Part shown: piece after piece, positions 1 through 29,655 of the stretch
Numbering within the stretch: the first letter of the stretch is position 1
Layout of the letters: each line of letters starts with the position of its first letter
From: Escherichia coli
GTDB lineage: Bacteria; Pseudomonadota; Gammaproteobacteria; Enterobacterales; Enterobacteriaceae
Strand: one strand, 5' to 3'
Length of the DNA: 64,000 nucleotides
Assembly (NCBI RefSeq): GCF_036507355.1
Contig: NZ_AP027877.1
Program-made: the position numbers and the translations under genes
Notes under the pieces: model-generated
What the model was told of the DNA's origin: nothing
The model's database searches: none
What the model saw: only the letters and a program-made list of their open reading frames with translations

Positions 1-1
1 G

Positions 2-175
2 TTCGATTTTTCTGACACGCCCTATACCGAAGAACAGATTGAATCCTTCAGAAACTGGCCCTCCCTGGGCCGAGGCAACCATCGTAAATCCGCGTTCAAT
101 GTTGCGTATTTCTTTGTGGAAAAACGCAGCCCGCTGACACCCAGGAAAATCACCAGAAATATCCGCATCCGTTAA
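2..175 (+). CDS. 3' end of an unidentified CDS (57 codons; start lies outside the window)
   Basis: The frame is open from the window edge to TAA at 173-175 (...NVAYFFVEKRSPLTPRKITRNIRIR*). I recognise no motif. Confidence 0.25.
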   Translation, partial: FDFSDTPYTEEQIESFRNWPSLGRGNHRKSAFNVAYFFVEKRSPLTPRKITRNIRIR

Positions 176-228
176 CGGTAGCGCGCATAACGGATAATGA
201 AAACGTCAATGAAAGGAGATCACCGAAG

Positions 229-747
229 ATGAGGAAAACCGCTGCCATGTTGCTTCTGGCATTTTCAGGTTGTGCCGGGGCAAAAACACTCCCCGCAGAA
301 AATTTGCAGGGGCTGTATGAGGCTTATGCCACCCTGAATACCTGCCACCAGTATGGTTACACTGGCGATGAGGCCTTAACTGCACTGGACAAACTTATCC
401 GCAGCAATCGCTATCAGGATAATAGCGGCAACATCATGACATTAATGAAGGACAATATTAACTATTACCATTCCCTTCAGGACCGCTTTATTCTTGAGCA
501 GCAATTCAAAAGCGAAGGAATAAACCAGAGCGGTATCCGGCTCCAGATAAAAACCCTCTGCGACCAGATGAACGCCGCTGTTGGTGGGAAGTTGGGTGTG
601 AAAACCCGTGTTATTTCACCGGATGACCTTCCCACCAGCGCAAAACCTGTTTTTGACAAACCGGTCACTAACAGTGCCCCGGCAATTCCGGAAGACCGAC
701 CGATGACATGGGACAACAGTCCGGTCCAGGGTATTCCGGTTCAGTGA
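229..747 (+). CDS. Hypothetical lipoprotein (172 aa)
   Basis: The N-terminus MRKTAAMLLLAFSGC carries a lipobox (LAFSG-C). AAGGAG lies ~10 nt upstream of the ATG. The C-terminal third is proline-rich. Confidence 0.6.
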   Translation: MRKTAAMLLLAFSGCAGAKTLPAENLQGLYEAYATLNTCHQYGYTGDEALTALDKLIRSNRYQDNSGNIMTLMKDNINYYHSLQDRFILEQQFKSEGINQSGIRLQIKTLCDQMNAAVGGKLGVKTRVISPDDLPTSAKPVFDKPVTNSAPAIPEDRPMTWDNSPVQGIPVQ

Positions 748-758
748 GGGGTAACACC

Positions 759-1073
759 ATGAAGAAGCATATTATTACCGCACTGCTCATCACAACAGTA
801 TCCGCTCCGGCGCTGGCAGCGTACCCGGTAAGCCAGCCTGCTCAGGCCGCAGAAGTGATGGTCAGTATATGCCAGCAGCAGCGTTCGGGTATGGACAAGA
901 ACCAGGCCATCCGTAAAGTCTATGGCACCGTAAGCGACTGGCCCATAGCTTCAACAACTGAAGTTGCTGCTGCGATGGATGAAGGATGGAATTTTGCTGT
1001 ACAAAATCCAGAGATAAGTTGCGACAGAATTTATCTCATGATGATTGACATGCTGGATGGGAAAAAGGATTGA
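759..1073 (+). CDS. Hypothetical small secreted protein (104 aa)
   Basis: I chose the internal ATG at 759 because GAGGGG lies 7 nt upstream. The Sec-type signal peptide is MKKHIITALLITTVSAPALA/AY. The start sits 12 nt after the stop of the upstream lipoprotein gene (747), so the two are probably co-transcribed. Confidence 0.55.
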   Translation: MKKHIITALLITTVSAPALAAYPVSQPAQAAEVMVSICQQQRSGMDKNQAIRKVYGTVSDWPIASTTEVAAAMDEGWNFAVQNPEISCDRIYLMMIDMLDGKKD

Positions 1074-1379
1074 GAAACCAAGCTTAACTTAAGTTGGCAA
1101 AACTAATCTGCATCAATTAAAATTTTACATAGCAATGTGCCCTCCAGCAGGGCACAATTATTATAAACCGTCTGCTATGAGCTGTGAGTTCAATGGGTCG
1201 ATGCAACGCTATTCTTAAATGAGAAGGACATTGACCGACTACGGTCAATAAAACAGTTTGAAGCAAAATCAGATTGCCTCAGCCCCTATCGTTCAGCATG
1301 ATTTTCCTGGAGAAAAGCGGTTTTGTGGCGGACCTGAACGGGCCGCCAGGTAAAACTCTGCTGCGAGAAAGAGGCCACA

Positions 1380-2144
1380 TCAGGCGGTGTGGTTGCTATC
1401 ATCTTGCATGAGATGGTTGGCTCGAAAGACCATCATCCCTTTTTGTCGAATAGCGTCAATCCACAAATCTGCCATCCACGAGTTGATGCCATAATGCTGG
1501 ATACAACATTCACGTATCAGCCGGTGTTCGTTCGCAATGGTAGTTGGCATCAAGGCGCTGTCATCCGTATTTAAACACACCGCCAGCGGCCCGCTGCGCA
1601 GGCCGTATTGGTTAAATTTTCCGCCGGTCGCCAACCATTCTGGATTAGGTGGATTCCAGCGAAAAAGCGGGTGTTCGTGATATTTCTCAAACCGACCAAT
1701 ATAAATATTTGAGGTTGGGCAGGCTTCAAACACTAAACCAAGACGGCTGTATTTTTCGGTTAGGTAATCCTGAATGGCTTCATACAGCTTAAGCTCCCCC
1801 TGAGAAATGAAATCCTCATCTTCAGACAGGGGCGACAAATAGCTATCAGTATCGTTAGGACAACAGTTAATGCAAATAATCCGGTTGGCGGGCTCCTTTT
1901 CATGCAAACCGCTGTTGAGATAGCGTTGCCATAAACGATAAGCAGTGACATTTTTCACTGACGGCGTATGATCTTCTTGCAACGCATCCCAGTCAGGGGC
2001 CCATTCCAGCCTATTCGCGCTGACGGACTCCAAGTTAGCATAATCAGGCCAATTGCGGCGCAGCAGCCACGCCTGATAAAGTAAGTTAGGCGTATAGATA
2101 TCTTTAAATATCCGCTGCGACCAGTGATGAATTTTATCGCGCAA
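1380..2144 (-). pseudogene. C-terminal fragment (254 codons) of an adenosine/AMP-deaminase-family protein. The N-terminal part was removed at the IS1 junction. Possibly the remnant of a RADAR RdrB-type deaminase.
   Basis: The translation contains the metal-dependent deaminase motifs FEACPTSN (compare ADA hxxCPxSN) and CLNTDDSAL (compare ADA SLNTDDP). The ORF's first codon is 2 nt from the IS1 end at 2147. No N-terminal deaminase motifs (HxH, HAGE) are present. Confidence 0.6.
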
Positions 2145-2201
2145 TTGGTGATGCTGCCAACTTACTGATTTAGTGTATGATGGTGTTTTTGAGGTGCTCC
2201 A

Positions 2202-2477
2202 GTGGCTTCTGTTTCTATCAGCTGTCCCTCCTGTTCAGCTACTGACGGGGTGGTGCGTAACGGCAAAAGCACCGCCGGACATCAGCGCTATCTCTGCTCT
2301 CACTGCCGTAAAACATGGCAACTGCAGTTCACTTACACCGCTTCTCAACCCGGTACGCACCAGAAAATCATTGATATGGCCATGAATGGCGTTGGATGCC
2401 GGGCAACTGCCCGCATTATGGGCGTTGGCCTCAACACGGTTTTACGTCACTTAAAAAACTCAGGCCGCAGTCGGTAA
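2202..2477 (+). CDS. insA: IS1 InsA
   Basis: The 91-aa translation [43 protein letters not shown]... is the canonical IS1 InsA. Confidence 0.95.
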
Positions 2478-2899
2478 CCTCGCGCATACAACCGGGCAGT
2501 GATGTGATTGTCTGCGCTGAAATGGACGAACAGTGGGGCTACGTCGGTGCTAAATCACGTCAGCGCTGGCTGTTTTACGCGTATGACAGGATACGGAGGA
2601 CAGTTGTGGCGCACGTTTTCGGTGAACGCACTCTGGCCACACTGGAGCGTCTTCTGAGCCTGCTGTCGGCCTTTGAGGTCGTGGTATGGATGACGGATGG
2701 CTGGCCGCTGTATGAATCACGCCTGAAGGGAAAGCTGCACGTTATCAGCAAGCGTTACACTCAGCGCATTGAGCGACATAATCTGAATCTGAGACAACAT
2801 CTGGCAAGGCTGGGACGGAAGTCACTGTCGTTCTCAAAATCGGTGGAGCTGCATGACAAGGTCATCGGGCATTATCTGAACATAAAACACTATCAGTAA
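2396..2899 (+). CDS. insB: IS1 InsB' frame (expressed as the InsAB' transposase by -1 frameshift)
   Basis: The translation ...[27 protein letters not shown]...[19 protein letters not shown] matches IS1 InsB from memory. Confidence 0.9.
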
Positions 2900-3069
2900 G
2901 TTGGAGTCACTACCGTAGAAGTTAAATCAGGAAAATCGAAAAAAATGAAACGTTCGGCATTGTCGTCGAGTTCCGCTTAATGACGTATCCATCCCGTTTT
3001 CCCCTTCACGTTTTCATGTTTGATAGAGGGCAAAATTGAGCCCTCTCAATCAAGATAATGAGTGAAAAC

Positions 3070-6000
3070 CTATACCGTCCAGCTGTTCGACACCACTTCA
3101 GCCTGCTTCAGTATCAGTTCAACTGCATAAGGTGTTTTATCTGGCGGATACTTGTACTTACGCAGCGTCTGACGCACCAGAATACGTAACCGCGCACGCA
3201 CGCTTTCTCGCACCTGCCAGTCTACGGTTGTGGACTGGCGCAATTTTAACGTGACTTCGATAGCCAGTTTCTTAAGGACGTCATCACCCAGCTCCCGTAC
3301 CGCACTTTCGTTTTCTGCCAGCGCATCGTAGAACGCGATTTCGTCCGGGTTTAGCCCCAGCGCTTCATCACGCGCCATCGCTTCCTGAAACTCTTTTGCC
3401 ATCTGGATCAGTTCTTCAATCACCTGCGCAGTTTCAATGGCGCGGTTATTGTATTTGAGAAGCACGGCTTTCAGGCGATCTGAGTATTTCTTCTCCTGCA
3501 CCACGTTGTTTTTGGTGCGGGCATGAATGCCGTCGTTCAGCAGTTTCTCCAGCAACTCGACTGCCAGATTACGCTGCGGCAATTCGCGCACTTCTTCCAG
3601 AAACTCGTCTGACAACAATCCAATATTCGGCTTATCCAGACCCGCCAGCGCAAACACATCATCCACGCCCGTCGCAATAATGGCGTTATCGAGGATTTTA
3701 CCGAGTAGCGTATTTTTCTCTGACTGACTGAATTTTTTGTCGGTTGTCGTCAGCTTGATAATCGCCACTTTCACCGCCGACAAAAACGCGATCTCTTTTT
3801 GCAAGGGTTTAGCTTCATCTAACGTACTGCACAGCGACCAGGCTTTGTTCATCGCCAGCACGACATCGAAAAAGCGCTTCTTACCGTCATCAAGGCCCAG
3901 CACATAATCTGCGGCTTTGAGTAAAAACCGTTGGGGCACCTCTGCAAAACCGGTGTAATCAAACCCGGCGGCGGTTGGTGTTTTGGCAAACATTCCATGA
4001 ATCACATCCAGCTTTTCAAGCAGGATGGAGAACGCTTCATGAGCATCGACTGTCGTCTGTCCTTTACCTTTTGAATCGGTATAAGTTTTCAGCGCCTGTT
4101 TCAGTTCATTGGCGATACCGATGTAATCCACCACTAAACCGCCCGGTTTATCTTTGAAGACGCGGTTGACGCGCGCAATGGCCTGCATCAGATTATGCCC
4201 GCGCATCGGTTTGTCGATATACATGGTATGACAACATGGCGCATCAAACCCGGTAAGCCACATATCGCGCACAATCACCAGTTTCAACGGGTCGTTGAGA
4301 TCTTTAAAGCGCGCTTCAAGGCGTTTTTTGGTTTGCTTATTGTAGATGTGCGGCTGAAGGAATTTATTATCGGAGGCTGAGCCGGTCATGATGATTTTGA
4401 TTTCACCTTTCTCGACGTCATCACTGTGCCATTCCGGGCGTAGAGCCACCAGCGCATCATACAGCTTCACGCAGATCTCACGGCTCATGGCAACAATCAT
4501 TGCTTTGCCATTCATTGTGGCGTTACGTGCCTCAAAATGCTGAACCAGATCGGCGGCCACCTCATTGATACGAGGTTCAGAACCAACCAGTTTTTCCAGA
4601 CGGCTCCAGTCACTTTTGGTTTTCTCTTTCTGATCGGTCTCTTCATCTTCGACCAGCTCATCCACCTGATTAGACAGCGTTTCCAGCTCTTCGTGGTTGA
4701 GGTCGAGTTTTGCCAGGCGCGATTCATAGTAGATAGGCACGGTTGCGCCATCTTCCACCGCATCCTGTATATCGTAGATAGAGACGTAATCACCAAACAC
4801 CGCGCGGGTGTCTTTATCTTCGGAAGAAACCGGTGTTCCGGTAAAGCCCATAAACGACGCATTGGGTAACGCATCGCGCATATGTTTGGCGTAACCGTAT
4901 TTATAAGCGCCAGTCTCCCGGTTCAGCGTGGCGCTAAGACCATACTGGCTGCGGTGCGCTTCATCGGAAATGACGACGATATTGCTGCGCAGGTTTAGCG
5001 CCGGGTGAGTCTGTTCGCCATCAAGCGGGGCAAATTTTTGTACGGTGGTAAAAATAATCCCGCCTGATTCACGGACATTGAGCATCTCGCGGAGCTGGTC
5101 GCGATCGTTTGCCTGTAACGGTTCCTGCTTAAGCAAATCCTGTGCCTGGCAGAAGGTGGCATACAGTTGGCCGTCGAGATCGTTACGGTCGGTCACCACC
5201 ACGATGGTCGGGTTGTTCATTTCCGCTTGTTGTAGCAGTTTTCCGGCGTAACAACACATCGAGATACTCTTACCGGAACCCTGCGTATGCCACACCACAC
5301 CGGCTTTTTTACTGCCTGGCGTGATGTTGCTGCGCAGCGGCAAGTGTTTACCGGTAGAGGCCACAATCGTCGCCGTCACCGCTTCACGTACTGCGTGGAA
5401 TTGGTGGTAAGCGGCAATCTTTTTAATCAGTCGTTTGCCGTCGCTTTCAAACAGGATGAAGTAACGAATGTAGTCGAGCAGCAGTTCGCGGTTAAAGAAC
5501 CCTTTTACTACCGTTTCAAGCTGCCATTCAAACAGCGGTTTGTCGTCTTCATTAGACAGCGTTTTCCACGGCAAGAAGCGCTCTTCGTTCGCGGTGAGAG
5601 AGCCAATACGGGCGTTGTAGCCATCGCTGACCACCAGCGCTTCGTTGCAGATGAACAGATCGCTGAGTTCGTTTTTATAGGTCTGCAACTGATTAAATGC
5701 CGCCCAGATATCGGCATTAGCATCAATCGGGCTTTTCAGCTCAATCACTACTACTGGCAATCCGTTGATATAGCAGATAACGTCCGGGCGACGTACCTGC
5801 TTCGTTCCCTGGATGGCCACCTGATTCACCACCGTAAAGTGGTTATTATTTGGGTGGTTAAAATCCATCAGTAGCGCTTTGTCGTGGATAACTTTGTCAT
5901 CCTGCTTGTACTGCACCGGCACGCCGTCGAGCAGCAGGTGATGGAAGGCTTTGTTACTGACGACCAGATCCGGGCTTTGCGCATGGGCGATACGCAGTAT

Positions 6001-6204
6001 CACCTCATCCAGCACGGCAACCGGGAGATGTGGGTTAATCTTTTGCAACTGCTCCAGTAGCACCGGGCGCAAAAACACATCGTGGAACGACGCACGCAGC
6101 GGATTGTTGCCATCTGGCGCAATATCCGGCCCGTGCAATACTTCCCAGCCCAGTTCAGCAAACCATTGCAGGCTTTGCTGTTCTAAATCGTCTTCGCTCA
6201 GCAT
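3070..6204 (-). CDS. hsdR: Type I restriction enzyme R subunit (1044 aa)
   Basis: It has Walker A (WHTQGSGKS), a DEAH box ([13 protein letters not shown]) and a long helicase core. It is the last gene of the hsdM-hsdS-X-hsdR operon. Its ATG overlaps the upstream stop (cTGATGc). Confidence 0.95.
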
Positions 6205-7391
6205 CAGGTTTCCTCTGTCTCGGTTTCTTCCATTTCTTCGGGCACGTTTGAAATCTCTTTGAGCGCCATATTCAGTGGGGCAATAAAGGGATCTAACGCT
6301 TTTTCAAATGCCGTCAGGTTTACCAGTAGCCAGTCGATCATTTCAGGCCAGTTGGCTTCATCAAGGCTGATGGCCGGGCTGGCATAGGAAATTCGACACG
6401 ATTTTTTACCCGGCAGAGGTTCCCACTTAAGCGCATGGCCAAACGCGTTTTCAATTGCCTCTTTGCGTTCATGTAGCCAGTTAAAAGCAAAGGTATTGCT
6501 CTCTGCGGAAGCTTTGGCAATCCACAGCTCAACCCGAATCTCTTTTTTACTGAAAATCAGGTTATACGACACCGCGCTAATACCAGAGCCCGCACTGATC
6601 CAGTGATCGGTAGAGGGGCTGATATTGTTATATAAGTGGCAGGAGCTGGCTTTGAGGCGCTCCAGCATCTTTGTCCAGAAAGCTTTACGCATTAATTGGA
6701 CTGGCTTTACTCCGCCGCTGACGGATTGTTCTTCCGCCTCTTTTTGCGCCATACCGATCATGTAAGATTCTGCTTCCGGTGTGGGGATAACCTGACGGAT
6801 ATCAACGAATACATCGTCGTTGAACTTATAGGGTTTAACCTTAAAGCACTGTACCCGCAGACCAAATTGCATGAGCCACAGGGCAGTGTTGGTCACCTCT
6901 TTGCGAAAGTTGGCTGCGACCATGATGATTCGCTGTGTACGGCTCTGGTTGATTAAGGCTTCATCCAGCGTTTCATATTCGAGGAATTCAGCAAGCACCT
7001 CTGCCGCCGGGCGATTTTCCTCTGGGTCGTATTTATCCAGATAAAGCTGGAAGATCTGCAGAATTTGCTCTTTACGCAGGTTGGCGCAATACCCGGCATA
7101 TTTGAGCGCTTGCCAGACGACGTCGCGACCTGAATCATCGAGCTTATTCTCGATGATCACCAGATTGCCTTTTTTATCGATAGCCAGCAGGTCAAGGCGC
7201 TCTTTGGTGTCGTCAAAACCGGCGAACTCTTTCTGTATAATCAGTAGTTCATCGTCATTATCGCGAGTTAACGCTTGGGGATTCTGCGCCAGCCATTCCT
7301 GCAGATTGCCACGTTCGGTAAAACCAAGACTACTGAAAGAGACTTCCTGTAGGGAGTGTAAGCTGTTAGTCGGCGTATCAACTTTATACAT
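6204..7391 (-). CDS. 395-aa protein embedded in the type I R-M operon. It has an N-terminal PD-(D/E)xK (NucS/DUF91-like) motif and a C-terminal region reminiscent of DUF4268.
   Basis: The start at 7391 (MYKVDTP...) overlaps the hsdS stop (ATGTATAA). The motif [21 protein letters not shown] gives D...ExK. There is no P-loop. The stop overlaps the hsdR start. Confidence 0.7.
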
Positions 7392-10830: not shown

Positions 10831-11721
10831 ATGTCCTGGCTTAATTCTGTCTTATTGGCGCTTACCTCGGTGCAACCTTATATGGTACCGGCAACCGTTA
10901 TCGGCCTCGTCAGTTTTGCATTCCTCTGTTTTATTTTCTTTTATTTTTTTAGAGCAGTTAAAATTATTAACGGCCTGAAAAAATATACTCAGTCAATTAA
11001 TGGCATCGAAAATAATGAGCCTGGTAATCAGCTTCAGCATCTGCAAAGTTTGTTTGTACAGCCTGAGTTAAAGCACGCCTGGAATGAATTCGAAGAATCG
11101 TTGCACTCACAATATGAACTGGAGGACGGGGAAGAGAAAATCGTCCGTATTAGGGCTACTGCACCGAGCGCCAGTTTCTTCTCGGAGCAACAACTGGTCG
11201 ATATTCCGCTGAACACCGAATTTTTCAAACACCTGCCCGGTATTCTGACCGGTGTGGGGATTATCGGTACCTTCTACGGTCTGATGATTGGTCTCAACCA
11301 CTTCGACCCCAGCACACCAGAGCAGGTCTCCAGCAGCGTCAATAATCTGCTTCGCGATGTGCTGTACGCCTTCCTCGGTTCAGCATTTGCGATTACGTTC
11401 TCTATCCTTATCACCTGGCTGGAGAAATTCTGTCTGGCGAAATGCTACAAATATCTGGAAAAATTCACCGCAGCTCTCGACGCCCTCTATGACAGCGGTG
11501 TTGGCGAGGAGTACCTTGCCTCACTGGTAAAATCCAGTAATGAAAGCGCGACCCAGGCACGCCATCTGAAAGAGAGCCTGGTTACCGATTTACGCGATAT
11601 GCTGCTGCATCTGGCCAACAGCCAGAAAGTGGAAAACGAGCGGCTAGCGACCACCCTCAGCACCACCTATCGCGAAACAGGACAACAGTTTGCCGAGCAA
11701 GTCAGCGGTGCGATTGAAAAC
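10831..11721 (+). pseudogene. MotA/ExbB/TolQ-type proton-channel protein (ZorA-like N-terminal ~297 aa), truncated by IS629
   Basis: It has N-terminal TM helices, then LPGILTGVGIIGTFYGLMIGL and LYAFLGSAFAITFSILITW (MotA/ExbB-like TM pair), then the beginning of a long helical tail. The reading frame runs into the first bases (TGA) of IS629 at 11722. The start is ATG 10831 or the upstream GTG 10801. Confidence 0.6.
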
Positions 11722-18630: not shown

Positions 18631-18840
18631 TTACAAAGTGAAAGAGAGACGTAGCGCCAGCGCGGCCAGCGTTACAAACAGCACAGGCAGAGTCATGATG
18701 ATCCCGGTGCGGAAATAGTATCCCCAGGTGATGGTCATGCTCTTCTGTGAAAAGACATGCAGCCAGAGTAGCGTTGCCAGGCTACCAATAGGTGTAATTT
18801 TCGGCCCCAGATCGCAGCCAATCACGTTGGCATAAATCAT
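18631..18840 (-). pseudogene. arsB: 3'-terminal fragment (last ~69 codons) of the arsenite efflux pump gene arsB
   Basis: The translation ...[22 protein letters not shown]...[20 protein letters not shown] is the ArsB C-terminus (intact ArsB is ~429 aa). No arsB sequence or arsR lies further upstream (right of ~18841). Confidence 0.85.
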
Positions 18841-22000: not shown

Positions 22001-22882
22001 GAAGAGAAAAAAGCTGGTTCGCTTATTCCTTACTCTATTAAGTCTCGTATTGAACATCTTTTTACTGCACCAGGAGAAGGAGCGGACCACGCTATAGCTA
22101 TAACGTCTCGCAATCTAAATTGGCTAATGTTTGTTGATCCTGCATGGGTAAAGGAATGGCTTATACCCCTTTTGGATTTAAAACATCCTGCAGCAGAACC
22201 AGCATGGAATGGTTATCTTCAGTGCAATGCTATGCCTTCAATTGCAGTAGCTGAACTTATTAAACCAGCTTTTCTTAACCTTATCCCTTGGATCGAATCT
22301 CTTTCTTGGGAAAAAGATTATTCAGTTCGAGCTTCGCAATGGCTTGGCTTAATGAGAATGTTTCACCCTGATGAGCCCTCCAGTCCTTCCAGGAATGAAA
22401 TGCGCTCCATATTACGAGCATTATCTGACGAGGCTCGAAATCGTTTTATTTCCTGGTTAGGATTGGTCGGGCAGAAAAACGAGAGTGGCTGGGTTAAGTA
22501 TGTGATCCCATTAATCAGAGAGGACTGGCCCAAAGAACGCCAATATAGAACCACGAGCTCTGTAAAAGCATGGATTGGTTTACTTGACGATACTGGCGAT
22601 AAGTTTCCGGAGGTTTACGATTCAGTAAAAACATACTTAGTACCAATCGAGACAATTGATCATTTGTTCTACAGATTCACTCGGGAGCTCGGTGGTAAAG
22701 GAGCAATTGCGGCTATTTTTCCAGAAACCACGCTTGATTTAATGGACAAAATAACACCACTGATATTCACGCGTACATCAGGAGAGCTGCAGAAGATTCT
22801 TGAGCTAATTGAAGATACAGATACAAGTCTGATCAAGGATTCTCGGTACTTACGGCTTATTGCACTGGTTGAGAAAAATTAG
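19073..22882 (+). pseudogene. ~1270-codon SIR2-domain (DSR-like defence-associated sirtuin) ORF interrupted by two in-frame stop codons (TAG 20270-20272, TAA 20996-20998)
   Basis: Track ORFs 19007-20272, 20309-20998 and 21104-22882 are all in the same frame, and the frame stays open between them. The N-terminal SIR2-type motifs are VFLCGAGVSLPSGMPSF, QIVTTNFDRLFE, YLHGRL and VLVGYQAEDPPV. The rest is a long helical region. Confidence 0.75.
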
Positions 22883-23040: not shown

Positions 23041-23763
23041 TTATTGAAATTGCTCAAATATACCATGCAACCCAATAAATTTTATTTTTAGTGCAGGATC
23101 ATGCCTTAGAACAGTCTCAAGTGAGTTCCGCTCATAAATTATTGATTGTGCTTGTATTGAGCCGTTCCATGAAGGCAAAAGCAGTAAAGCAGATGTTTCC
23201 AAATCAATACCCCACCAATCGTTAACATAGCAATTTAAAAAATCAACAAGAGCCTTAATCGCAATAAAAGCATCTTTTTCGGTATATGTTTCAGGATCGA
23301 GGGATATACCTGATATATTACTTTTAGCTTGCTCGGAATTAATATTAGACTGGTGTTGATAAGCAATTTTTCCTTCACCCGGTTTAGTTTCTATTGTATC
23401 AGTGAAAATTTTAATCTTAGGATGCACCAATGCATTTCGTTGTGCTATTAATTCTTTTATTATTTGTGTTTGAGTGGTTCCACGAGGTAAAGACATGTCT
23501 TTATGCCATTGAAGAGTATAGTCAAATTTATCAAGTGAAGAGAACCTGTCAATTTGATCTTTTAACTTTTGCGTTATTTCTATAGAAGATAAAAATGAGT
23601 TAGCTGCAGCCTCAATAGCGTAGTTAATTGAAAGTACACTTGATTTGGCAAGTGTTTTTTTGATGTGTGATTTTTTTGTTGCAGCTGATAATTCATAAAG
23701 AGTTATTGCATCAGAAAAAAGCTCAAAAAAGCTGTTCTTGGTTATTTCAACTTTTCTTTTCAC
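23041..23763 (-). CDS. ~240-aa protein with a HEPN-type RNxxxH motif (putative RNase effector)
   Basis: The motif ELIAQRNALVHPK (R-N-x3-H) lies in a helical N-terminal half. The probable start is GTG 23763 (GAGGG 6 nt upstream); the track start is TTG 23769. It is the last gene of an AT-rich minus-strand operon. Confidence 0.6.
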   Translation of the reverse strand: MKRKVEITKNSFFELFSDAITLYELSAATKKSHIKKTLAKSSVLSINYAIEAAANSFLSSIEITQKLKDQIDRFSSLDKFDYTLQWHKDMSLPRGTTQTQIIKELIAQRNALVHPKIKIFTDTIETKPGEGKIAYQHQSNINSEQAKSNISGISLDPETYTEKDAFIAIKALVDFLNCYVNDWWGIDLETSALLLLPSWNGSIQAQSIIYERNSLETVLRHDPALKIKFIGLHGIFEQFQ

Positions 23764-23852
23764 ACGCAACCCTCTGCATAAAAAATAAAATCATATAGAC
23801 AGAATACAATTTCCTATAATCTTTACATTCTACTAATTGTGGATATAAATGG

Positions 23853-25325
23853 CTATCGAGAATAAGAACTGGGTTTAGGAAAACCACCTCTGACGACGAC
23901 AACAACAATTGCAACTTGAGATTGACCTGTTGGATGAGTGAATACTTCAATATCATCCTCTATTACTCCCACCGGCGCTGATTTTGACGTTGATTCCAGA
24001 ACAACCAAAATACCGATACGCTTACCTAATCCAATGGCATAAGCTGCTGTTTGATCGAAATATTTTTGAAAATCCTTGGGAAAAAGAACCTTATTATTTT
24101 CAACTTTTAGTTCTATCGGAATGTCTTCAAATGTGAGATCCGTTATCCCGCCAGCAGCCTCTGGATGGCCTTGTAATTTCTCGCCAATCTCATTCCTACT
24201 TCTAAGCATTTCGGCTATTTTACGCTGAAATTTTTGCTCTGATGTGCCAGCAATAAATAAACTAGCTTTAAGAGCTTGTGCTGCAACATTTCCTAAGCCG
24301 CCAAGTATAACCATTGTATTAGCAATGTCATCTGAGTGTAATCCAGGGAAAGCTCGTAATATGTTACGAATTTTTATAAGATGCCTATCGACGTTTGAAA
24401 ATCCAGTTAATGGAGCTTGAGCGGAATCACTCCCTTCAAGTAGTAAGCGCCTATGTCCTACGATAGCAATATTTTGGCAATTACTTAAATTGTCAAACTC
24501 GGCAGCATATAGGAATTCGTAAGGTCTCGAGCCAAATGAATTTGCCACTTCCAAGACGACACGACCGATCCCCTTCAGTGTGAAGGGGCCTTCCCCCTCT
24601 GGTTTCTCAAATCTAAAATCAGGCAACCAGTCTCGCTCACGAGCATCAATTGTCACTGGCTTTAATGAGAGGAAATTTGCACTTTTTGGCCAATTTGAAA
24701 CCCTGACCTCTATGTTAAGGTCATAAGCCGTACCCGGCTTAAGATAATTCCATTGCTGAGCTGGTTCCCCATCAATATCAAACTTTAGAAATGCAACTGT
24801 CGATTCTTGTGTTTTATTCTCTTTTGTCTCTTTACTAGATATTCCTTGCCTAATCTCCTCAATATTTTTATCGCGAAGATTTGCGAATAAGAGTAGTGGC
24901 AATGACCAGCTTGTTAACTGGTCTTGTATTTGTTTTAATGAATCTAATTTACTGATTGAACGGACTTGCTCTATAAATTCATTAAATTGTTTGTTCTCCG
25001 AGAGACTCGTCGTCATGTCGATCTCTGATGCTTTTAATTGTGCTGAATTTAAAAACCTTTGAGCATCAGTCTCAGCATTACGTATAGCATGTTTCCACTC
25101 AGCTAGAGTTACAAATATAGTCATTGCTATATAATATGCACGATATTGATCTTCAACATATCCCTGACCGAGCTCATCGAGCGTTTCATTGAGCTTTTGA
25201 CACGCTTCTTTAAGTTTCACCAAGTCATTCGGAATGGACTTGAGTGCACCATCCAACGCTGCTGCAATCTCAACCCTCGGAGAAAAAGCTTGGCGGAAAA
25301 TCTCGAAATTTGGCTCGTTCTTCAT
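23853..25325 (-). CDS. ~490-aa protein with a C-terminal PD-(D/E)xK nuclease-like domain carrying a RecB/Cas4-type QxxxY motif
   Basis: The start ATG 25325 is preceded by GGAG at 7 nt. The C-terminus reads GGITDLTFEDIPIELKV...YFDQTAAYAIGL (D ... ExK ... QxxxY). It has a helical N-terminus and a beta-rich middle. Confidence 0.65.
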   Translation of the reverse strand: MKNEPNFEIFRQAFSPRVEIAAALDGALKSIPNDLVKLKEACQKLNETLDELGQGYVEDQYRAYYIAMTIFVTLAEWKHAIRNAETDAQRFLNSAQLKASEIDMTTSLSENKQFNEFIEQVRSISKLDSLKQIQDQLTSWSLPLLLFANLRDKNIEEIRQGISSKETKENKTQESTVAFLKFDIDGEPAQQWNYLKPGTAYDLNIEVRVSNWPKSANFLSLKPVTIDARERDWLPDFRFEKPEGEGPFTLKGIGRVVLEVANSFGSRPYEFLYAAEFDNLSNCQNIAIVGHRRLLLEGSDSAQAPLTGFSNVDRHLIKIRNILRAFPGLHSDDIANTMVILGGLGNVAAQALKASLFIAGTSEQKFQRKIAEMLRSRNEIGEKLQGHPEAAGGITDLTFEDIPIELKVENNKVLFPKDFQKYFDQTAAYAIGLGKRIGILVVLESTSKSAPVGVIEDDIEVFTHPTGQSQVAIVVVVVRGGFPKPSSYSR

Positions 25326-27843
25326 ATTCTTTCTCCAACTCAGCCGTAAGACCATTCCATTTTTCAATTAAGTCATTATAGGGTTCGCAAACACTTATGG
25401 CATGTTCAATGCTAGCTGCTTCTGTAACTAAAGCAGCCTTAAGTTTCCATTGTGTATTTCTTTCATCATTTGGAATTTCTTCCAGTAGTTCCTTTAAACA
25501 AACATTTGCAGTTACGTTATCACCACACTTGCTTAACGCAGCCACGTACACTAATGCTTCAATAAATTGTTGAGGTTTAAATGGTTTCAGAGCATTGAAT
25601 GCTTTTTGGAGATCGTCTTTACAATTTCGAAGCTCATTATGTGGCGCTCTTAATATCACTGAGATGCAGTCATCAATAGAAATACTGCGAGTATACTCAT
25701 CCTGAATTGCTTTGAGTGCGACTTTGACAAAACCGGGAATATCATCAAAATGAAAACGCAATCGATTGATAGCATCATAAAGTGCACTTCCTTCTAAAAT
25801 TAATAATATATTAGAAAGAAGCAATCCAATTTTCCCCTTTCTCTCTTCATCTGATAAGCAAAGAGAAGAAAAAACGTCAATGCATTCTACAATGAAATTA
25901 TCTTTTTTATCTTGTTGAATATAATAGCAAATTAGATTCCATAGCCGGGATCTCACAAGTCCCCGTTTCTCCTCAGGAAAAGATCTACGGCTCAAAGCGC
26001 GAACAGCATACTGATGCACCATAACATATTGATCTAATAGCAAGACTGAATATGCTTCGAAGAATAAATCTGGGAAATTCTTCACTAAATCATAGGGAAC
26101 ATTTTCCCACGCTTGTACGGCACGTGCTCGAATCAATGTACTCTCATCCATAAGAGCACGATACCAATCGGAGAGCACTAGTGTTAGGCTGTCAATACCA
26201 GTTAATAACTTAGAAACATGGGCAATCATGTTCCCACGCATTTGAGTTTGTTCTTCTGGTAAGCTTCTATAGAGATGAAGAAAATCATCGATTCCTTCAC
26301 TCCCTCTAGATTTAGCTCCAATCGCAGCCCATTCAATCAATGCACCCTGTAAGCCATCAATAGCATTACGCTTATTACTTTTATCTAAATGATCTAGAAA
26401 ACTCTCATTTATTTCTATGATTTTTTCTTTATTCAACGCCTCAAATTTCTCGCTTAGCGTTGCAGCCGCTCCGATCAAATCGTCAAAATTATCAACTGCA
26501 AGCTCAGCAAATTCGTCCCAAGAGTGTCTAAAGAATTGTCCTGCATCATCCATGCTATCCTCTGGATTTTCCACAGCAGCCCAGAGCAAACGCCTAAAAG
26601 CTATTTTTTGTGTCTTTCCTGTTTTACTTTTTTTTCTATAGTTATTTCGCAGTACAGATCTGTAAGCTCTATTGGCCTCATGTCTCCCAATATCATCTTT
26701 GTCAGCAAGATAGGATTGAATAACTTTATCGCTTTCATCGGGAAATCTATCTAAGTATTTCGTAGCAGCCTCCCGAAGAAAGAAAAGAATGCTGCTATCT
26801 CTCCGCTCCTCCGGGAGTAGAGTCCGTCGACGCATCAGCTTAGCAAATATACTTCTAATATGTCTTAGAAGCAGCTCATCATCATCCGATGCAATAATTA
26901 TCTCAATAGCAAATTGAAATTTTCCCCGGTGAGTATCTTTTATGTATTCATCAACAACATCACAGATATCAGCTTGTCTTTTTTTAAAAAGTGACTGAAT
27001 GGGGCCTTTATTAAGTACTTTTCGCTCAAATGTGCCAATCATCATTCCAGGAGGAGATTCAACAGCCATTCTAACAAAGTGGTAAAGGACTTTTAAGAAA
27101 TCATCTTCAGATAGATTCTCTGCTTCCAAGAGGATTGCTTCTATAGCTGGTGGACAATATTCGAAGTTGTTTATTAAATATACTGAAATTGCCAGTTTTT
27201 CCGCTTGTGATAATTCAGTTCTTATTAAAGCTTTTGCTGCTGGCATTGAATATGGTAATTTCTCATGTAACACTGCAGGCAACAAGTGTTCAATTATTTT
27301 ACTTGTAAATGTCTCAGGTGCCAGATTAGCAAGTTGTTCCAAACGGGGATCGTTGTTCTCTATATCCTCTTGATCGAGTTCATCAAGCAAATCAAGCACA
27401 AACGTTTCTTCTAGAGTAAGTGAAAGACGTAATACTGCTCGTTCTTGTTGTCTATTGAGCTGCTTCTGCTTTCTCTGCCTTTCTTCTTCTTTGCGAGCCA
27501 AATTTCGTTCTTCGGCAGATTTTTCTCTTGGGCCTACAAACTCTAAAATATTGGGAAATCCCACCGGAACCCGTTGATTACAATGTTTACAGTTCTGTTT
27601 ATAGAAGCTGTAAACCGAGTCTTCCAGCAGCCAGCTAAGCATTGAACTTTGCTTAACAAATTTGCATTGAACTCCCATGTGACCAATGGGTAACCCTGTT
27701 TCAGCCTCAATCATGCCTCTCCCCTCTGATCGAATGAATTCAGAGTGAGAACACCAGTTACTAAGTAGGTGTACAGCACGGAGATTTCGTTGACCAGCTT
27801 CGATTGCCTCTTCAAATCTTTTTTTATCTTCAAAATCATCCAT
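25270..27843 (-). CDS. 857-aa all-helical (HEAT/ARM-like) protein with an N-terminal Cys/His cluster. Function unknown.
   Basis: The ATG is preceded by AAGGGTG at 8 nt. The N-terminal cluster is CSH...H-x4-C...CKHC (residues 31-88), followed by a K/R/E-rich coiled coil and ~700 aa of helical repeats. I found no P-loop, DEAD or other catalytic motif. Confidence 0.7.
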   Translation of the reverse strand: MDDFEDKKRFEEAIEAGQRNLRAVHLLSNWCSHSEFIRSEGRGMIEAETGLPIGHMGVQCKFVKQSSMLSWLLEDSVYSFYKQNCKHCNQRVPVGFPNILEFVGPREKSAEERNLARKEEERQRKQKQLNRQQERAVLRLSLTLEETFVLDLLDELDQEDIENNDPRLEQLANLAPETFTSKIIEHLLPAVLHEKLPYSMPAAKALIRTELSQAEKLAISVYLINNFEYCPPAIEAILLEAENLSEDDFLKVLYHFVRMAVESPPGMMIGTFERKVLNKGPIQSLFKKRQADICDVVDEYIKDTHRGKFQFAIEIIIASDDDELLLRHIRSIFAKLMRRRTLLPEERRDSSILFFLREAATKYLDRFPDESDKVIQSYLADKDDIGRHEANRAYRSVLRNNYRKKSKTGKTQKIAFRRLLWAAVENPEDSMDDAGQFFRHSWDEFAELAVDNFDDLIGAAATLSEKFEALNKEKIIEINESFLDHLDKSNKRNAIDGLQGALIEWAAIGAKSRGSEGIDDFLHLYRSLPEEQTQMRGNMIAHVSKLLTGIDSLTLVLSDWYRALMDESTLIRARAVQAWENVPYDLVKNFPDLFFEAYSVLLLDQYVMVHQYAVRALSRRSFPEEKRGLVRSRLWNLICYYIQQDKKDNFIVECIDVFSSLCLSDEERKGKIGLLLSNILLILEGSALYDAINRLRFHFDDIPGFVKVALKAIQDEYTRSISIDDCISVILRAPHNELRNCKDDLQKAFNALKPFKPQQFIEALVYVAALSKCGDNVTANVCLKELLEEIPNDERNTQWKLKAALVTEAASIEHAISVCEPYNDLIEKWNGLTAELEKEYEERAKFRDFPPSFFSEG

Positions 27844-27898
27844 TTAGATAACACCCTTATAAGGAACATGTACTCATCTAAAATGCTGTTACCGGATT

Positions 27899-27927
27899 AT
27901 TATACCTAAAACAATGAATGCTGTGTA
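27899..27927 (-). promoter_or_regulatory. Putative sigma70 promoter of the three-gene operon
   Basis: On the minus strand it reads TACACA (-35, 4/6) - 17 nt - TATAAT (perfect -10), ~50 nt upstream of ATG 27843. Confidence 0.35.
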
Positions 27928-28246
27928 TTATGAAATGTGATATAAGTCAATTAGTTACATATAAAAACCAACTCACATCCAAAAGGATAGTATTTCGAGG
28001 TTTGTAGCATCATTAAATGTGAACTTATTTATCGCCCCCTCAAGTTAACTAATAAATAAGTTATAATTTACATATACTTCTGGAATTTAGAAACCTTATA
28101 TCTAATAGTTGAGTAAGTTAATAATCAACTTGAGTGTGATTCATAAAAAAAATAATTATTATTTTCAGCCCCTCCATTATGGAGGAGCAATAATAGTATA
28201 GTTTTCCTGTATTCCTAACGATCCAGTTAGGCTTAGAGAAATCTAA

Positions 28247-29443
28247 TTATGAAGCACTCCTGAGAGCAACCCTTCCAACTTTATCAATATAATCCGCATA
28301 CCACTGCATCATCTCTCTCCTGCCTTCCAAATACAGCGCATGGTTGTACGTCCCGCGAATCGCATTCTTATCGACATGCGCAAGCTGGGTTTCAATCCAT
28401 GCGGTATTGAACCCTTCCTCATGCAAAATCGTACTCATCGTGTGGCGGAAACCATGCCCCGTTACCTTCCCCGTGTACCCAATCCGCTTAAACACCTGAT
28501 TAATACTCGCTTCGCTCATTGTTTTGCGGGGATCATTCCTCCCAGGAAACACCAGAGGATATTGCCCAGACATCACTTTGAGCTGCTGTACGATCTCCAG
28601 CGCTTGGGTAGAGAGGGGCACCAGGTGAGGCCGTTTCATCTTCATGCGCTCTGCAGGTATTTCCCACACCGCTTTTTCAAGATCAAACTCACTCCAGAAA
28701 GCACCTCGAAGCTCACCGGTGCGAACCCCCGTAAGGATCAGCAAACGTGCGGCAAGAACAACCAGCGGGCTGCCTGTATAGCCAGAAAGAGCTTTAAAGA
28801 AATCTGGTAACTCCTCAACGGTAAGGAAGGGATAATGCTTCGATTCATGCCCTGACATCGCGCTGGTTAGATCCGCAGCCGGATTGTATTCCGCACGACC
28901 GGTAACTATGGCGTAGCGAAAGACTTCGCTGCAGCGCTGGCGAACTTTCTTGGCCTTCTCTGTCGCACCACGGCTTTCCATTCGACGCAGTACATTCAAC
29001 AGAACAAGAGGCTTAATTTCATTGACTGGCTGCTGACCGATATAGGGAAAAATATCTTTATTTAAAGCTTCGATAATGTCCGATGCATACCCTTCTGACC
29101 ATCTGCTCACCTTCGTACCGTGCCACTCAAGCGCCACAGACTGGAACGTATTATTGAGCTGCACATCACGAACCAGCTTTTCTTCTTTCTTGGCAAACGA
29201 TGGATCGATACCCTCGGCCAGCTTTTTCTTGGCTTCATCGCGTAGTGCCCTCGCTTGAGCAAGGGACACTGCCGGATAAACGCCAAAAGCCATACGCTTC
29301 TCTTTTCCATTGAAGCGATATTTCATTCGCCAGTATCGAGAACCAGAGGGAACGACTTCAAGATACAAACCAGCACCATCTGCCAGCTTATAGGCTTTCT
29401 CTCTGGGTTTAGCTGCATCTACCTGTCGCGCATTTAGCTTCAT
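28247..29443 (-). CDS. P4-type tyrosine integrase (398 aa)
   Basis: The start MKLNARQVDAAKPREKAYKLADGAGLYLEVVPSGSRYWRMKYRF is a typical P4-integrase N-terminus. The catalytic residues are LTGVRTGELR, HGFRHT and LAH...GTY. Confidence 0.9.
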   Translation of the reverse strand: MKLNARQVDAAKPREKAYKLADGAGLYLEVVPSGSRYWRMKYRFNGKEKRMAFGVYPAVSLAQARALRDEAKKKLAEGIDPSFAKKEEKLVRDVQLNNTFQSVALEWHGTKVSRWSEGYASDIIEALNKDIFPYIGQQPVNEIKPLVLLNVLRRMESRGATEKAKKVRQRCSEVFRYAIVTGRAEYNPAADLTSAMSGHESKHYPFLTVEELPDFFKALSGYTGSPLVVLAARLLILTGVRTGELRGAFWSEFDLEKAVWEIPAERMKMKRPHLVPLSTQALEIVQQLKVMSGQYPLVFPGRNDPRKTMSEASINQVFKRIGYTGKVTGHGFRHTMSTILHEEGFNTAWIETQLAHVDKNAIRGTYNHALYLEGRREMMQWYADYIDKVGRVALRSAS

Positions 29444-29606
29444 TGGGGGCATCTCCCTGGACCGAACACAGAATGCCCCCACTTATGCCCCCAACTGTAA
29501 CTTGATTCCGGTTGAGTCCAGTTGATAACAGGAGATAAAATACGGGCTAGAAACCGCAGTATACGGGCTTTTAGTTGATTTCGGTAGACTTGGGAAGAGT
29601 TTGAAA

Positions 29607-29655
29607 TGGTGCCGATAATAGGAGTCGAACCTACGACCTTCGCATTACGAATGCG
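29607..29655 (-). tRNA. Truncated tRNA-Thr(CGU) (thrW-type): 3' 49 nt only (anticodon loop to CCA end). Not a functional tRNA; probably an att-site remnant.
   Basis: The minus strand reads CGCATTCGTAATGCGAAGGTCGTAGGTTCGACTCCTATTATCGGCACCA, identical to the 3' part of E. coli thrW as I remember it. Upstream of it, the sequence (…ctcattttcgaactggct) is unrelated to the tRNA's 5' half. Confidence 0.8.

What the first reader, a model, noticed from the sequence alone, without database searches (positions are those of the whole stretch)
1..29655. Mosaic defence island in which recognisable systems are decayed while two unknown operons and the type I R-M remain intact
Reading left to right, the island contains:
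- small secreted/lipoprotein genes;
- a deaminase remnant plus IS1;
- a complete type I R-M with an embedded nuclease-fold gene;
- a MotA/ZorA-like remnant plus IS629;
- an intact 3-gene membrane operon;
- an arsB'C scar;
- a SIR2 pseudogene with 2 nonsense codons;
- an intact AT-rich 3-gene HEPN/nuclease operon;
- the integrase and a tRNA fragment.

There are at least three visibly different base compositions. Both ISs lack target duplications. The pattern of intact unknown genes surrounded by dead known defence genes argues that the unknown operons are under current selection. From memory of K-12 gene order (pth-ychF-ycgV-dhaR), the whole block is an insertion upstream of ycgV.
Basis: partly seen in the sequence, partly recalled or inferred. 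Interest (0 to 1): 0.5.

Follow-up and report, generated by a model that had tools for sequence, protein, structure and literature searches.

The report
Eroding mosaic defence island at ychF–ycgV
This is a patchwork anti-phage defence island at a known E. coli insertion hotspot; its two "unknown" operons are a listed candidate system (PDC-M09) and the known Olokun system, and insertion sequences and point mutations are wearing the island down at random rather than sparing those operons.

Summary
The region is the right-hand 30 kb of a ~46-53 kb island between ychF and ycgV. That site is empty in K-12 and in 4078 of 5426 complete E. coli genomes, and it is already published as defence hotspot #22.

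Every module could be named:
- an RdrB (RADAR) remnant cut by IS1;
- an intact type I R-M with an embedded DUF4268 gene (PADLOC candidate PDC-S11);
- the first 297 codons of Zorya zorA, left by a 7.2-kb deletion next to an IS629-like element;
- PDC-M09 A and B plus a lineage-specific third gene;
- arsC plus an arsB fragment;
- DSR1 with two in-frame stop codons;
- Olokun (oloA-oloB) followed by a separate HEPN gene;
- a P4-type integrase with a 48-nt thrW attachment fragment.

So the "unknown" operons are a listed candidate and a validated system.

This is an ordinary, well-documented kind of locus. The only real unknown is what PDC-M09 does.

The parts
229..747 (+). Small secreted or lipoprotein gene (172 aa). 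It belongs to the ancestral RADAR-type island of this hotspot.
   Evidence: ORF and signal peptide. No Pfam, PADLOC or NCBIfam match. It lies next to an intact rdrB in 23 other genomes at 99.6-99.7% identity.
759..1073 (+). Small secreted protein gene (104 aa).
   Evidence: Annotated as WP_076487237.1 in ET826.
1380..2144 (-). 3' remnant of rdrB, the RADAR adenosine deaminase (C-terminal 248 of ~855 residues). Its 5' part is cut off by IS1.
   Evidence: PADLOC RdrB 1.2e-142, profile 606-853 of 855. NCBIfam RdrB 2.1e-96.
2147..2914 (+). IS1 (768 bp) without a target-site duplication. It forms the junction between the RADAR island and the R-M/Zorya block.
   Evidence: Ends and flanks read. The left flank is the same in ET826 and ET881, but the right flank differs in ET881 (joined to window 20573), which marks an IS1-adjacent deletion.
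3070..6204 (-). hsdR, type I restriction subunit (1044 aa, intact).
   Evidence: Pfam HSDR_N, SWI2_SNF2 and T1RH-like_C; PADLOC REase_I, 1202 bits. 100% identical in at least 12 other E. coli.
6204..7391 (-). DUF4268 gene embedded in the R-M operon (PADLOC candidate PDC-S11). Its N-terminal part carries a D...ExK nuclease-like motif.
   Evidence: Pfam DUF4268 2.3e-36; PADLOC PDC-S11 3e-173. Weak NucS hit at residues 63-106. The motif LDLLAID...VIIENK is read.
7384..8769 (-). hsdS, specificity subunit with two target-recognition domains. GC 0.39.
   Evidence: Pfam Methylase_S in two stretches; PADLOC Specificity_I 2.9e-113.
8759..10468 (-). hsdM, methyltransferase subunit.
   Evidence: Pfam N6_Mtase 6e-116 and HsdM_N.
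10831..11721 (+). zorA' : the first 297 codons of type I Zorya ZorA. The rest of zorA and all of zorBCD are deleted.
   Evidence: PADLOC ZorA1 5.2e-162, profile 1-295 of 727. ET826 has intact zorABCD here; the difference is a 7174-bp deletion ending at the IS629 left end.
11722..13031 (+). IS629-like IS3-family element (1310 bp) without a 3-bp duplication. It forms the junction between the Zorya block and the thrW-type block.
   Evidence: Ends read. The right flank is constant, but there are three different left flanks in the window, ET826 and ET729. The IS629 name is from my own knowledge of its ends and length.
13154..13999 (+). PDC-M09A: coiled-coil protein with a central Gly/Ala-zipper membrane region.
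   Evidence: PADLOC 2.4e-120. dN/dS 0.04-0.07. AF2 model of helical hairpins, with residues 92-188 at low confidence.
13999..15444 (+). PDC-M09B: N-terminal soluble domain with invariant polar residues, followed by a multi-helix glycine-zipper membrane domain.
   Evidence: PADLOC 2.9e-214. dN/dS 0.05-0.13. Invariant columns. No fold match.
15481..18003 (+). Third gene, 'M09C' (840 aa): N-terminal membrane helices, a Cys-rich stretch, and a C-terminal module (~405-820) shared with a large uncharacterised family.
   Evidence: Weak PADLOC M09B hits, 6e-5 and 6e-4. Present with A-B in L006-L008, decayed in L009 and L010, and absent from L011 and from Aeromonas, Vibrio and Klebsiella loci. dN/dS 0.05-0.10. 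1202 representative clusters, some fused to Sel1 or TPR repeats.
18168..18187 (.). Bidirectional terminator-like hairpin between M09C and arsC.
   Evidence: 8-bp stem with 6 GC pairs, reported on both strands.
18193..18840 (-). Intact arsC (141 aa) plus a 69-codon C-terminal fragment of arsB. The scar is already present in the thrW-site copies.
19073..22882 (+). DSR1 (defence-associated sirtuin 1) pseudogene with in-frame stops TAG at 20270-20272 and TAA at 20996-20998.
   Evidence: PADLOC Dsr1 N-terminal part 1.6e-44 and C-terminal part 2.3e-44, all in one frame. Relatives have TGG and TAC (or CAC) at these codons.
23041..23766 (-). Stand-alone HEPN-like gene (240 aa) downstream of oloB.
   Evidence: Invariant R110 and H115 with near-invariant N111, i.e. 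an R-N-x3-H motif. Weak hits to several Pfam HEPN families. Homologues sit alone in other contexts.
23853..25325 (-). oloB, the Olokun nuclease subunit, with a C-terminal PD-(D/E)xK-type motif (TDL...IELKVE).
   Evidence: PADLOC OloB 5.5e-58; LmuA C-terminus 5.9e-14. dN/dS 0.13. Nuclease role from bioRxiv 10.1101/2025.07.10.664194.
25270..27843 (-). oloA, the large helical (adaptin-like) Olokun subunit.
   Evidence: PADLOC OloA 7.5e-77. oloA-oloB order is kept in L016-L018 and L020-L022, and L019 holds the 3' part of oloA. Interrupted by ISKpn26 at 27326-27329 in ET826.
28247..29443 (-). P4-type tyrosine integrase of the thrW-type element.
29609..29656 (-). 48-nt 3' fragment of tRNA-Thr (thrW): the attachment core of the thrW-type element.
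29748..29851 (+). attR of the whole island: the native ychF 3' end plus terminator. ET826 has a ~104-bp imperfect direct repeat of it (attL) just after ychF.

Best explanation
Window 1-29747 is the right-hand part of a composite integrative island sitting in the 3' end of ychF. This site is E. coli defence hotspot #22.

**How it was built (three sources).**
1. A resident RADAR-type island of this hotspot supplied the small secreted genes and the rdrB remnant. It also carries a pseudo-tRNA-Thr site 90 bp inside its right end.
2. A type I R-M + DUF4268 + Zorya I block circulates 100% identical in an integrase island near paoD/ykgL in other strains. It is joined here on the left through IS1.
3. 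The integrase-proximal 16.6 kb of a thrW-type (CP4-6-site) element carries PDC-M09, arsC, DSR1, HEPN and Olokun. Its right junction lies exactly in the att core, so I infer that the integrase made it. Its left junction is the IS629-like element.

**How it is being lost.** The island is eroding through IS-adjacent deletions, IS insertions and single nonsense mutations. These fall on known and candidate systems alike.

**What still looks functional in this strain.**
- The type I R-M, which methylates and restricts DNA.
- Olokun, an OloA-OloB nuclease complex.
- The stand-alone HEPN gene, a probable RNase toxin or defence gene.
- PDC-M09. I infer that it acts at the inner membrane through glycine-zipper proteins and kills or arrests infected cells. 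That mechanism is inference only.

Which systems are intact is a snapshot of recent random hits, not a sign of differential selection.
For: **Location.**
- ET826, ET881 and ET729 show pth-ychF-[integrase ... integrase]-ycgV.
- K-12 is empty at this site, as are 4078 of 5426 genomes.
- Hochhauser et al. 2023, S1 Table, list ychF-ycgV as hotspot #22, occupied in 99 of 1231 genomes.
- The attL/attR repeat is shown.

**Module identities.**

**Sources of the blocks.**
- Window 1-2146 lies next to intact RADAR in 23 genomes at the same hotspot.
- Window 2915-11721 is 100% identical in EA7 and others, near ykgL/paoD.
- The junction inside the att core is shown.

**IS-driven erosion.**
- Neither IS has a target duplication.
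- The IS629-like element has one constant flank and three different flanks on the other side.
- ET881 has a deletion starting at IS1.

**Events recorded across the eight copies.**
- Window: Zorya deleted (7174 bp); DSR1 second stop.
- ET826: oloA::ISKpn26 with a 4-bp duplication.
- ET881: everything from the R-M to mid-DSR1 deleted.
- ET729: rdrB' through Zorya deleted, M09C truncated, arsC through oloB deleted.
- EC2641: M09A::IS110, DSR1::IS903B, int::IS3.

**Family-level purifying selection, on dead and live genes alike.**

| Gene | dN/dS |
|---|---|
| M09A, B, C | 0.04-0.13 |
| OloA, OloB | ~0.13 |
| HEPN | 0.05-0.15 |
| DSR1 | 0.17-0.20 |

Against: - The order and mechanism of assembly are inferred from end-points only. 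No circular form, no second att copy of the thrW-type element and no intermediate genome was found.
- With only about eight copies, several of them from one farm site, the event counts cannot exclude modest differences in selection between systems.
- Activity of the R-M, Olokun, HEPN and M09 genes in this strain is assumed from intact reading frames. Expression was not assessed, and the promoter scan was no better than chance.
- PDC-M09 has never been shown to defend against phage. I found no paper that names it.
Confidence: 0.8

Rival explanations
1. One reading: the two intact operons are kept by ongoing selection, for example against locally abundant phages, while the recognisable systems have become useless and decay.
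For: In this one strain, M09 and Olokun are intact while RADAR, Zorya and DSR1 are dead. Both operons show strong purifying selection at family level, with dN/dS 0.04-0.14.
Against: - All E. coli copies are at least 99.9% identical, so intactness is the default state.
- M09 is hit in 3 relatives and Olokun in 2.
- DSR1 has the same low dN/dS as the intact genes.
Confidence: 0.12
2. Loss of Zorya, DSR1 and RADAR is adaptive. These systems are costly, autoimmune or incompatible with each other or with resident prophages and plasmids, so inactivating mutations are selected for rather than neutral.
For: - DSR1 acquired two independent nonsense mutations in one lineage, with no other change among about 3800 nt relative to ET826.
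- The TAA stop is shared by all three ychF-site copies.
- NAD-depleting and abortive-infection systems are known to be toxic when mis-activated (established knowledge).
Against: - Once the first stop exists, a second stop is neutral.
- The deletions are all anchored at IS ends and remove whatever lies next to them, including the R-M and M09.
- There is no recurrent independent loss of the same system by different mechanisms beyond what its target size predicts.
Confidence: 0.15
3. The M09 operon is not a defence system. It is a membrane module of the mobile element itself, for example for element maintenance, exclusion or toxin-like addiction, and it sits among defence genes only because both are island cargo.
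For: - No experimental support for defence exists.
- There are no enzymatic domains.
- It always lies next to AlpA, YagK/YfjJ and DUF932 backbone genes of integrative elements.
Against: - PADLOC lists it as a phage-defence candidate.
- Its neighbours include Gabija, an Abi_2 protein, SNF2-PLD genes, DSR1 and Olokun.
- It is lost without loss of the element in ET881.
Confidence: 0.3

Closest known systems
E. coli defence hotspot #22 (ychF-ycgV) of Hochhauser et al. 2023, PLoS Genet (PMC10121019)
   Same: Same chromosomal site, flanked by the same core genes. It is variably occupied by integrase-bearing islands that carry defence systems.
   Different: This cargo combination occurs in this form in only one other complete genome (ET826). 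Occupancy in my count is about 25% of genomes for any insertion or rearrangement, against 8% for defence-carrying islands in the paper.
[not shown]
   Same: The same integrase, att core and cargo order (M09-arsC-DSR1-HEPN-Olokun-int) at 99.9% identity.
   Different: Here only the integrase-proximal 16.6 kb is present. It lies at ychF rather than thrW, is joined on its left to an IS629-like element, and its DSR1 is broken.
Olokun (OloA/OloB; Millman et al. 2022; complex described in bioRxiv 10.1101/2025.07.10.664194)
   Same: Two adjacent genes match both PADLOC profiles. OloB ends in a PD-(D/E)xK-type motif.
   Different: OloA is 857 aa against a 596-position profile. A HEPN gene follows in this sub-lineage only.
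PADLOC phage-defence candidate PDC-M09
   Same: The A and B genes match at 2e-120 and 3e-214 and overlap by their stop and start codons.
   Different: A third 840-aa gene follows in a subset of Enterobacterales. It is not part of the PADLOC definition and is absent in Aeromonas, Vibrio and Klebsiella.
DSR1, RADAR and type I Zorya
   Same: Clear homology of the remnants.
   Different: None is complete here: DSR1 has two stops, RADAR is reduced to 29% of RdrB, and Zorya is reduced to 41% of ZorA.

Membership tests
Defence island at hotspot #22 | Insertion between the core genes ychF and ycgV, absent from K-12 | tested here: met
Defence island at hotspot #22 | Carries at least one recognised defence system and mobility genes | tested here: met
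   Type I R-M and Olokun, plus integrases at both ends.
Olokun | Adjacent OloA and OloB homologues | tested here: met
   PADLOC 7.5e-77 and 5.5e-58. The genes overlap by 56 nt.
Olokun | PD-(D/E)xK nuclease active site in OloB | tested here: inconclusive
   The motif TDL...IELKVE is visible and there is an LmuA C-terminus hit at 5.9e-14. No structural or catalytic test was made.
Olokun | Protects against phage | not testable with these tools
   Needs phage-challenge assays.
PDC-M09 (candidate) | Adjacent M09A and M09B homologues | tested here: met
   Synteny is kept in 6 genome loci and 6 further loci.
PDC-M09 (candidate) | Anti-phage activity | not testable with these tools
   No paper names PDC-M09.
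DSR1 | Single ~1250-aa protein with an N-terminal SIR2 domain | tested here: not met
   Homology spans the whole length, but two in-frame stops split it into 399 (from M23), 229 and 592 codons.
Type I Zorya | zorA, zorB, zorC and zorD all present | tested here: not met
   Only ZorA residues 1-297 remain. ET826 has all four genes.
RADAR | rdrA ATPase plus full rdrB deaminase | tested here: not met
   Only the C-terminal 248 residues of RdrB remain, and there is no rdrA.
Type I restriction-modification | Full-length hsdR, hsdM and hsdS with their domains | tested here: met
   The proteins are identical to those in at least 12 genomes.
HEPN domain proteins | Conserved Rx4-6H motif in a helical domain | tested here: met
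   R110 and H115 are invariant and N111 is at least 90% conserved across 19 homologues down to 38% identity.
HEPN domain proteins | Significant match to a HEPN profile | tested here: inconclusive
   Only weak hits (0.003-0.1) to HEPN_Apea, HepT-like, RiboL-PSP and Swt1 in a few members.
ClyA/XaxA-type alpha-pore-forming toxins (considered for M09A) | Sequence or fold match to the family | tested here: not met
   NCBIfam alph_xenorhab_A scores 21.6 bits against a cut-off of 125. Foldseek hits to ClyA, AhlB and SmhB have E about 1 and TM 0.25-0.33.
tRNA-targeting integrative element (thrW type) | Tyrosine integrase next to an att core equal to the tRNA 3' end | tested here: met
tRNA-targeting integrative element (thrW type) | Second att copy at the distal end, so that the element can excise | tested here: not met
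   No second copy of the core was found in the window, ET826, ET881 or ET729.

The most novel reading that the evidence does not exclude
PDC-M09, here in a three-gene form, may be a genuine anti-phage system that works by an undescribed membrane mechanism.

- A and B are glycine-zipper membrane proteins under strong purifying selection, with no detectable enzyme fold.
- B carries a set of invariant polar residues (K66, H67, E69, E72, R104, D109, Q118, K120, H135 and others) that look like a ligand or catalytic site.
- The C-terminal ~415 residues of the third gene define a family of at least 1200 representative clusters, some fused to Sel1 or TPR sensor-like repeats.

If this is right, the conserved module would be a widespread membrane effector.
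Probability: 0.35. Interest if true: 0.55.

Novelty: new member of a known kind. Interest (0 to 1): 0.25.

Why it matters
- **A natural deletion series.** Together with ET826, ET881 and ET729 (all from one frog-farm site), the window gives a series of one island in which each defence system has been hit by a different IS event or point mutation. This illustrates how fast defence islands turn over. It also shows that "intact next to dead" in a single genome is not evidence of selection.
- **Targets for experiment.** PDC-M09 (±M09C) and the HEPN gene beside Olokun are cheap to clone and test.
- **Otherwise ordinary.** The hotspot, the element types, the erosion mechanisms and four of the six systems are already described.

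Tried and rejected
1. **M09A as a ClyA/XaxA-type pore-forming toxin.** The NCBIfam hit is weak. The AF2 model has mean pLDDT 63, and Foldseek against the PDB gives nothing at E ≤ 0.001. This is a lead only.
3. **A PD-(D/E)xK reading of the M09B motif D109...Q118-x-K120.** This is unsupported. M09A shares the flanking TAPxDY...NH motif without that insert.
4. **M09C as a paralogue of M09B.** Only weak PADLOC hits support it, and hhalign gives a probability of 3%.
5. **HEPN as an obligate third Olokun gene.** Rejected. Its homologues are a Vibrio integron-type cassette and lone genes in Budviciaceae and Pseudomonas. A 62%-identical Olokun locus (L021) lacks it.
6. **Promoter scan.** Fewer sites were found than in shuffled sequence, so it is uninformative.
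7. **A second thrW att copy or an IS1 at the same junction in other strains.** Neither was found.
8. **dN/dS within E. coli.** Not possible, because all copies are at least 99.9% identical. I used other genera and metagenome contigs instead.
9. **Literature search for 'PDC-M09' and for ychF/ycgV islands.** Nothing beyond the Hochhauser supplementary table.

Full report
**What the region is.** Window 1-25000 is 100% identical to E. coli ET826 (NZ_CP100901.1), apart from one large gap. In ET826, ET881 and ET729 the gene order is pth-ychF-[integrase ... island ... integrase]-ycgV-dhaR. K-12 has ychF and ycgV 768 bp apart.

A query spanning the K-12 junction is contiguous in 4078 of 5426 complete genomes. 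The site is therefore empty in about 75% of strains. The ychF-ycgV interval is listed as defence hotspot #22 by Hochhauser et al. 2023, occupied in 99 of 1231 genomes (PMC10121019, S1 Table).

The island ends at about 29747. From 29748 the window is identical to the K-12 sequence that starts at the last 12 nt of ychF. ET826 carries a diverged ~104-bp copy of that stretch directly after ychF, as expected for attL/attR of an element that targets the ychF 3' end. The left limit of the finding (position 1) is only the window edge. In ET826 a further ~14 kb of island lies to the left.

**Check of the listed items.** All are present.

| Window coordinates | Identity | Main evidence |
|---|---|---|
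| 229-747, 759-1073 | Two small genes with signal peptides, no family match | |
| 1380-2144(-) | C-terminal 248 residues of RADAR RdrB | PADLOC 1.2e-142; NCBIfam 2e-96 |
| 2147-2914 | IS1, 768 bp, 9-bp flanks differ | |
| 3070-10468(-) | hsdR, hsdS, hsdM full-length, with DUF4268 (PDC-S11, 3e-173) between hsdR and hsdS | |
| 10831-11721 | ZorA1 residues 1-297 of 727 | |
| 11722-13031 | IS629-like element, 1310 bp, 3-bp flanks differ | |
| 18193-18840(-) | arsC intact plus 69 codons of arsB | |
| 19073-22882 | DSR1 in one frame with TAG at 20270 and TAA at 20996 | |
| 28247-29443(-) | P4-type integrase | |
| 29609-29656 | 48-nt fragment matching the 3' part of thrW | |

Module GC ranges from 0.33 (HEPN gene) to 0.54 (hsdM, IS629-like element).

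**The two "unknown" operons.**

*13154-15444* matches PADLOC phage-defence candidate PDC-M09 (A 2.4e-120, B 2.9e-214). The third gene (15481-18003) gives only weak M09B-like hits.
- In other genomes the A-B pair is constant.
- The third gene is present in Enterobacter and Cedecea (L006-L008).
- It is decayed in Yersinia and Serratia (L009, L010).
- It is absent from a myxobacterial MAG and from Aeromonas, Vibrio and Klebsiella loci. There the pair sits in AlpA/YagK/DUF932 islands beside Gabija, an Abi_2 protein or SNF2-PLD genes.

*23853-27843(-)* is Olokun (OloA 7.5e-77, OloB 5.5e-58). Olokun is a published system, described as a 2:2 complex of an adaptin-like OloA and a PD-(D/E)xK nuclease OloB (bioRxiv 10.1101/2025.07.10.664194).

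*The 240-aa gene downstream of oloB* has an invariant R-N-x3-H motif across homologues down to 38% identity, and weak hits to several HEPN Pfam families. Its homologues stand alone elsewhere, for example as a Vibrio cassette among many short ORFs and as lone genes in Budviciaceae and Pseudomonas. An Olokun locus at 62% identity lacks it. It is therefore a neighbour of Olokun, not a subunit.

**Where the blocks come from.**
- Window 1-2146 lies next to intact rdrB-rdrA in 23 genomes at this same hotspot.
- Window 2915-11721 (R-M plus zorA) is 100% identical in at least 12 genomes. There it belongs to an integrase island near paoD/ykgL, with complete zorABCD.

RADAR-type islands of the hotspot carry a variant pseudo-tRNA-Thr fragment at the same spot, 90 bp left of attR. 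Their identity with the window begins inside the att core. I infer that the right junction of the thrW-type block was made by site-specific recombination. Its left junction is the IS629-like element.

**Erosion.** The IS629-like element has the same right flank in the window, ET826 and ET729, but three different left flanks:
- ET826 keeps all of Zorya.
- The window has lost 7174 bp (zorA codon 298 through zorD).
- ET729 has lost everything from the rdrB remnant to zorD.

IS1 keeps its left flank. In ET881 its right side is joined to window position 20573, which removes the R-M, Zorya, M09, arsC and half of DSR1.

Other events:
- ISKpn26 in oloA of ET826, with a 4-bp duplication at 27326-27329.
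- In ET729, IS1B in oloA, ISKpn26 upstream of oloA, and a deletion from M09C to oloA.
- In EC2641, IS110 in M09A, IS903B in DSR1 and IS3 in the integrase gene.
- The DSR1 TAA stop is shared by the three ychF-site copies. The TAG stop is unique to the window.

**Selection.** The M09 operon occurs in 6 of 5426 E. coli genomes and the Olokun cluster in 7, all at ≥99.9% identity. The island is therefore a recent arrival, and intact frames are the default.

Against diverged relatives, every gene shows purifying selection (Nei-Gojobori estimates):

| Gene | dN/dS | Divergence (dS) |
|---|---|---|
| M09A | 0.04-0.07 | 0.17-1.2 |
| M09B | 0.05-0.13 | 0.14-2.0 |
| M09C | 0.05-0.10 | 0.11-1.3 |
| OloA | 0.14 | 0.7 |
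| OloB | 0.13 | 0.7 |
| HEPN | 0.05-0.15 | 0.03-0.19 |
| DSR1 | 0.17-0.20 | 0.06-0.12 |

These are real genes. The dead DSR1 looks no different from the live ones, so its stops are very recent. Every system is hit in some relative. The claim that the intact operons are specifically protected by selection is therefore not supported.

**Mechanism.**
- *Shown:* the identities, junctions and events above.
- *From established knowledge:* type I R-M methylates and cleaves DNA; Olokun needs its nuclease site; DSR1 depletes NAD+; RADAR and Zorya need all their subunits.
- *Inferred:* PDC-M09 acts at the membrane.

The basis for the M09 inference is as follows.
- M09A is a coiled coil with a central Gly/Ala-zipper region.
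- M09B has a soluble N-terminal domain with many invariant polar residues, followed by five or more hydrophobic helices.
- The C-terminal ~415 residues of M09C match at least 1200 representative clusters. Some are fused to Sel1 or TPR repeats.
- No fold or family match was obtained, so this remains a hypothesis.

**Verdict.** This is a new instance of a known kind of locus at a known hotspot. Its modest value lies in the natural deletion series and in pointing to PDC-M09 as an untested candidate.

Noticed in passing
window 30604-35743: ycgV is split by two tandem IS3-family elements. One is at about 31127-32357 with 39-nt inverted ends; the second is at about 32358-33590. ET826 and ET881 have an intact ycgV.
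   Followed up: partly
L002 5996-6043 (IDR1900005638-01-02) versus window 29609-29656: RADAR-type islands at the same hotspot carry a variant pseudo-tRNA-Thr 3' fragment (TGGGACAATAGGAGTCGAACC...). It lies next to a cbtA remnant and has no integrase. This looks like a secondary attachment site inside the island.
   Followed up: partly
L025 22315-26217 (ET881): ET881 keeps a 1300-aa P-loop NTPase gene in the left part of the island. ET826 and ET729 have lost it next to another IS1, so erosion also affects the part of the island outside the window.
   Followed up: no
L027 9589-11979 and L035 5132-8979: In its usual location near paoD/ykgL, the R-M/Zorya block is preceded by a UvrD-helicase gene (plus a small ORF in one strain). 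This may be a further defence gene. It is missing from the window, where IS1 sits at that boundary.
   Followed up: no
L013 and L014 (Vibrio parahaemolyticus), 9001-9723: The HEPN-gene homologue (54% identity) lies among dozens of short ORFs separated by ~30-codon micro-ORFs, the look of a chromosomal integron cassette array.
   Followed up: no
L009 9478-9906 and L010 9477-11050: The third M09 gene is reduced to fragments in Yersinia proxima and truncated or frameshifted in Serratia sp. PL17, while A and B stay intact. The third gene is therefore dispensable for keeping the pair.
   Followed up: partly
L022 1899-3079; L017 922-3492; L020 3442-6006: In metagenome relatives the integrase matches in two frames (probable frameshift, L022). 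My translations of oloA in L017 and L020 each contained one stop codon. I did not check whether these are internal stops or coordinate effects.
   Followed up: no
window 13999-15444 (M09B residues 60-155): A cluster of invariant polar residues (K66, H67, G68, E69, E72, R104, D109, Y110, Q118, K120, N123, H135, Y139, Y149, P152, K153) lies in a region that AF2 models poorly. M09A shares the TAPxDY...NH part of this motif (hhalign E 8e-4).
   Followed up: partly
window 18168-18187: A strong bidirectional terminator-like hairpin lies between the convergent M09C and arsC genes.
   Followed up: no
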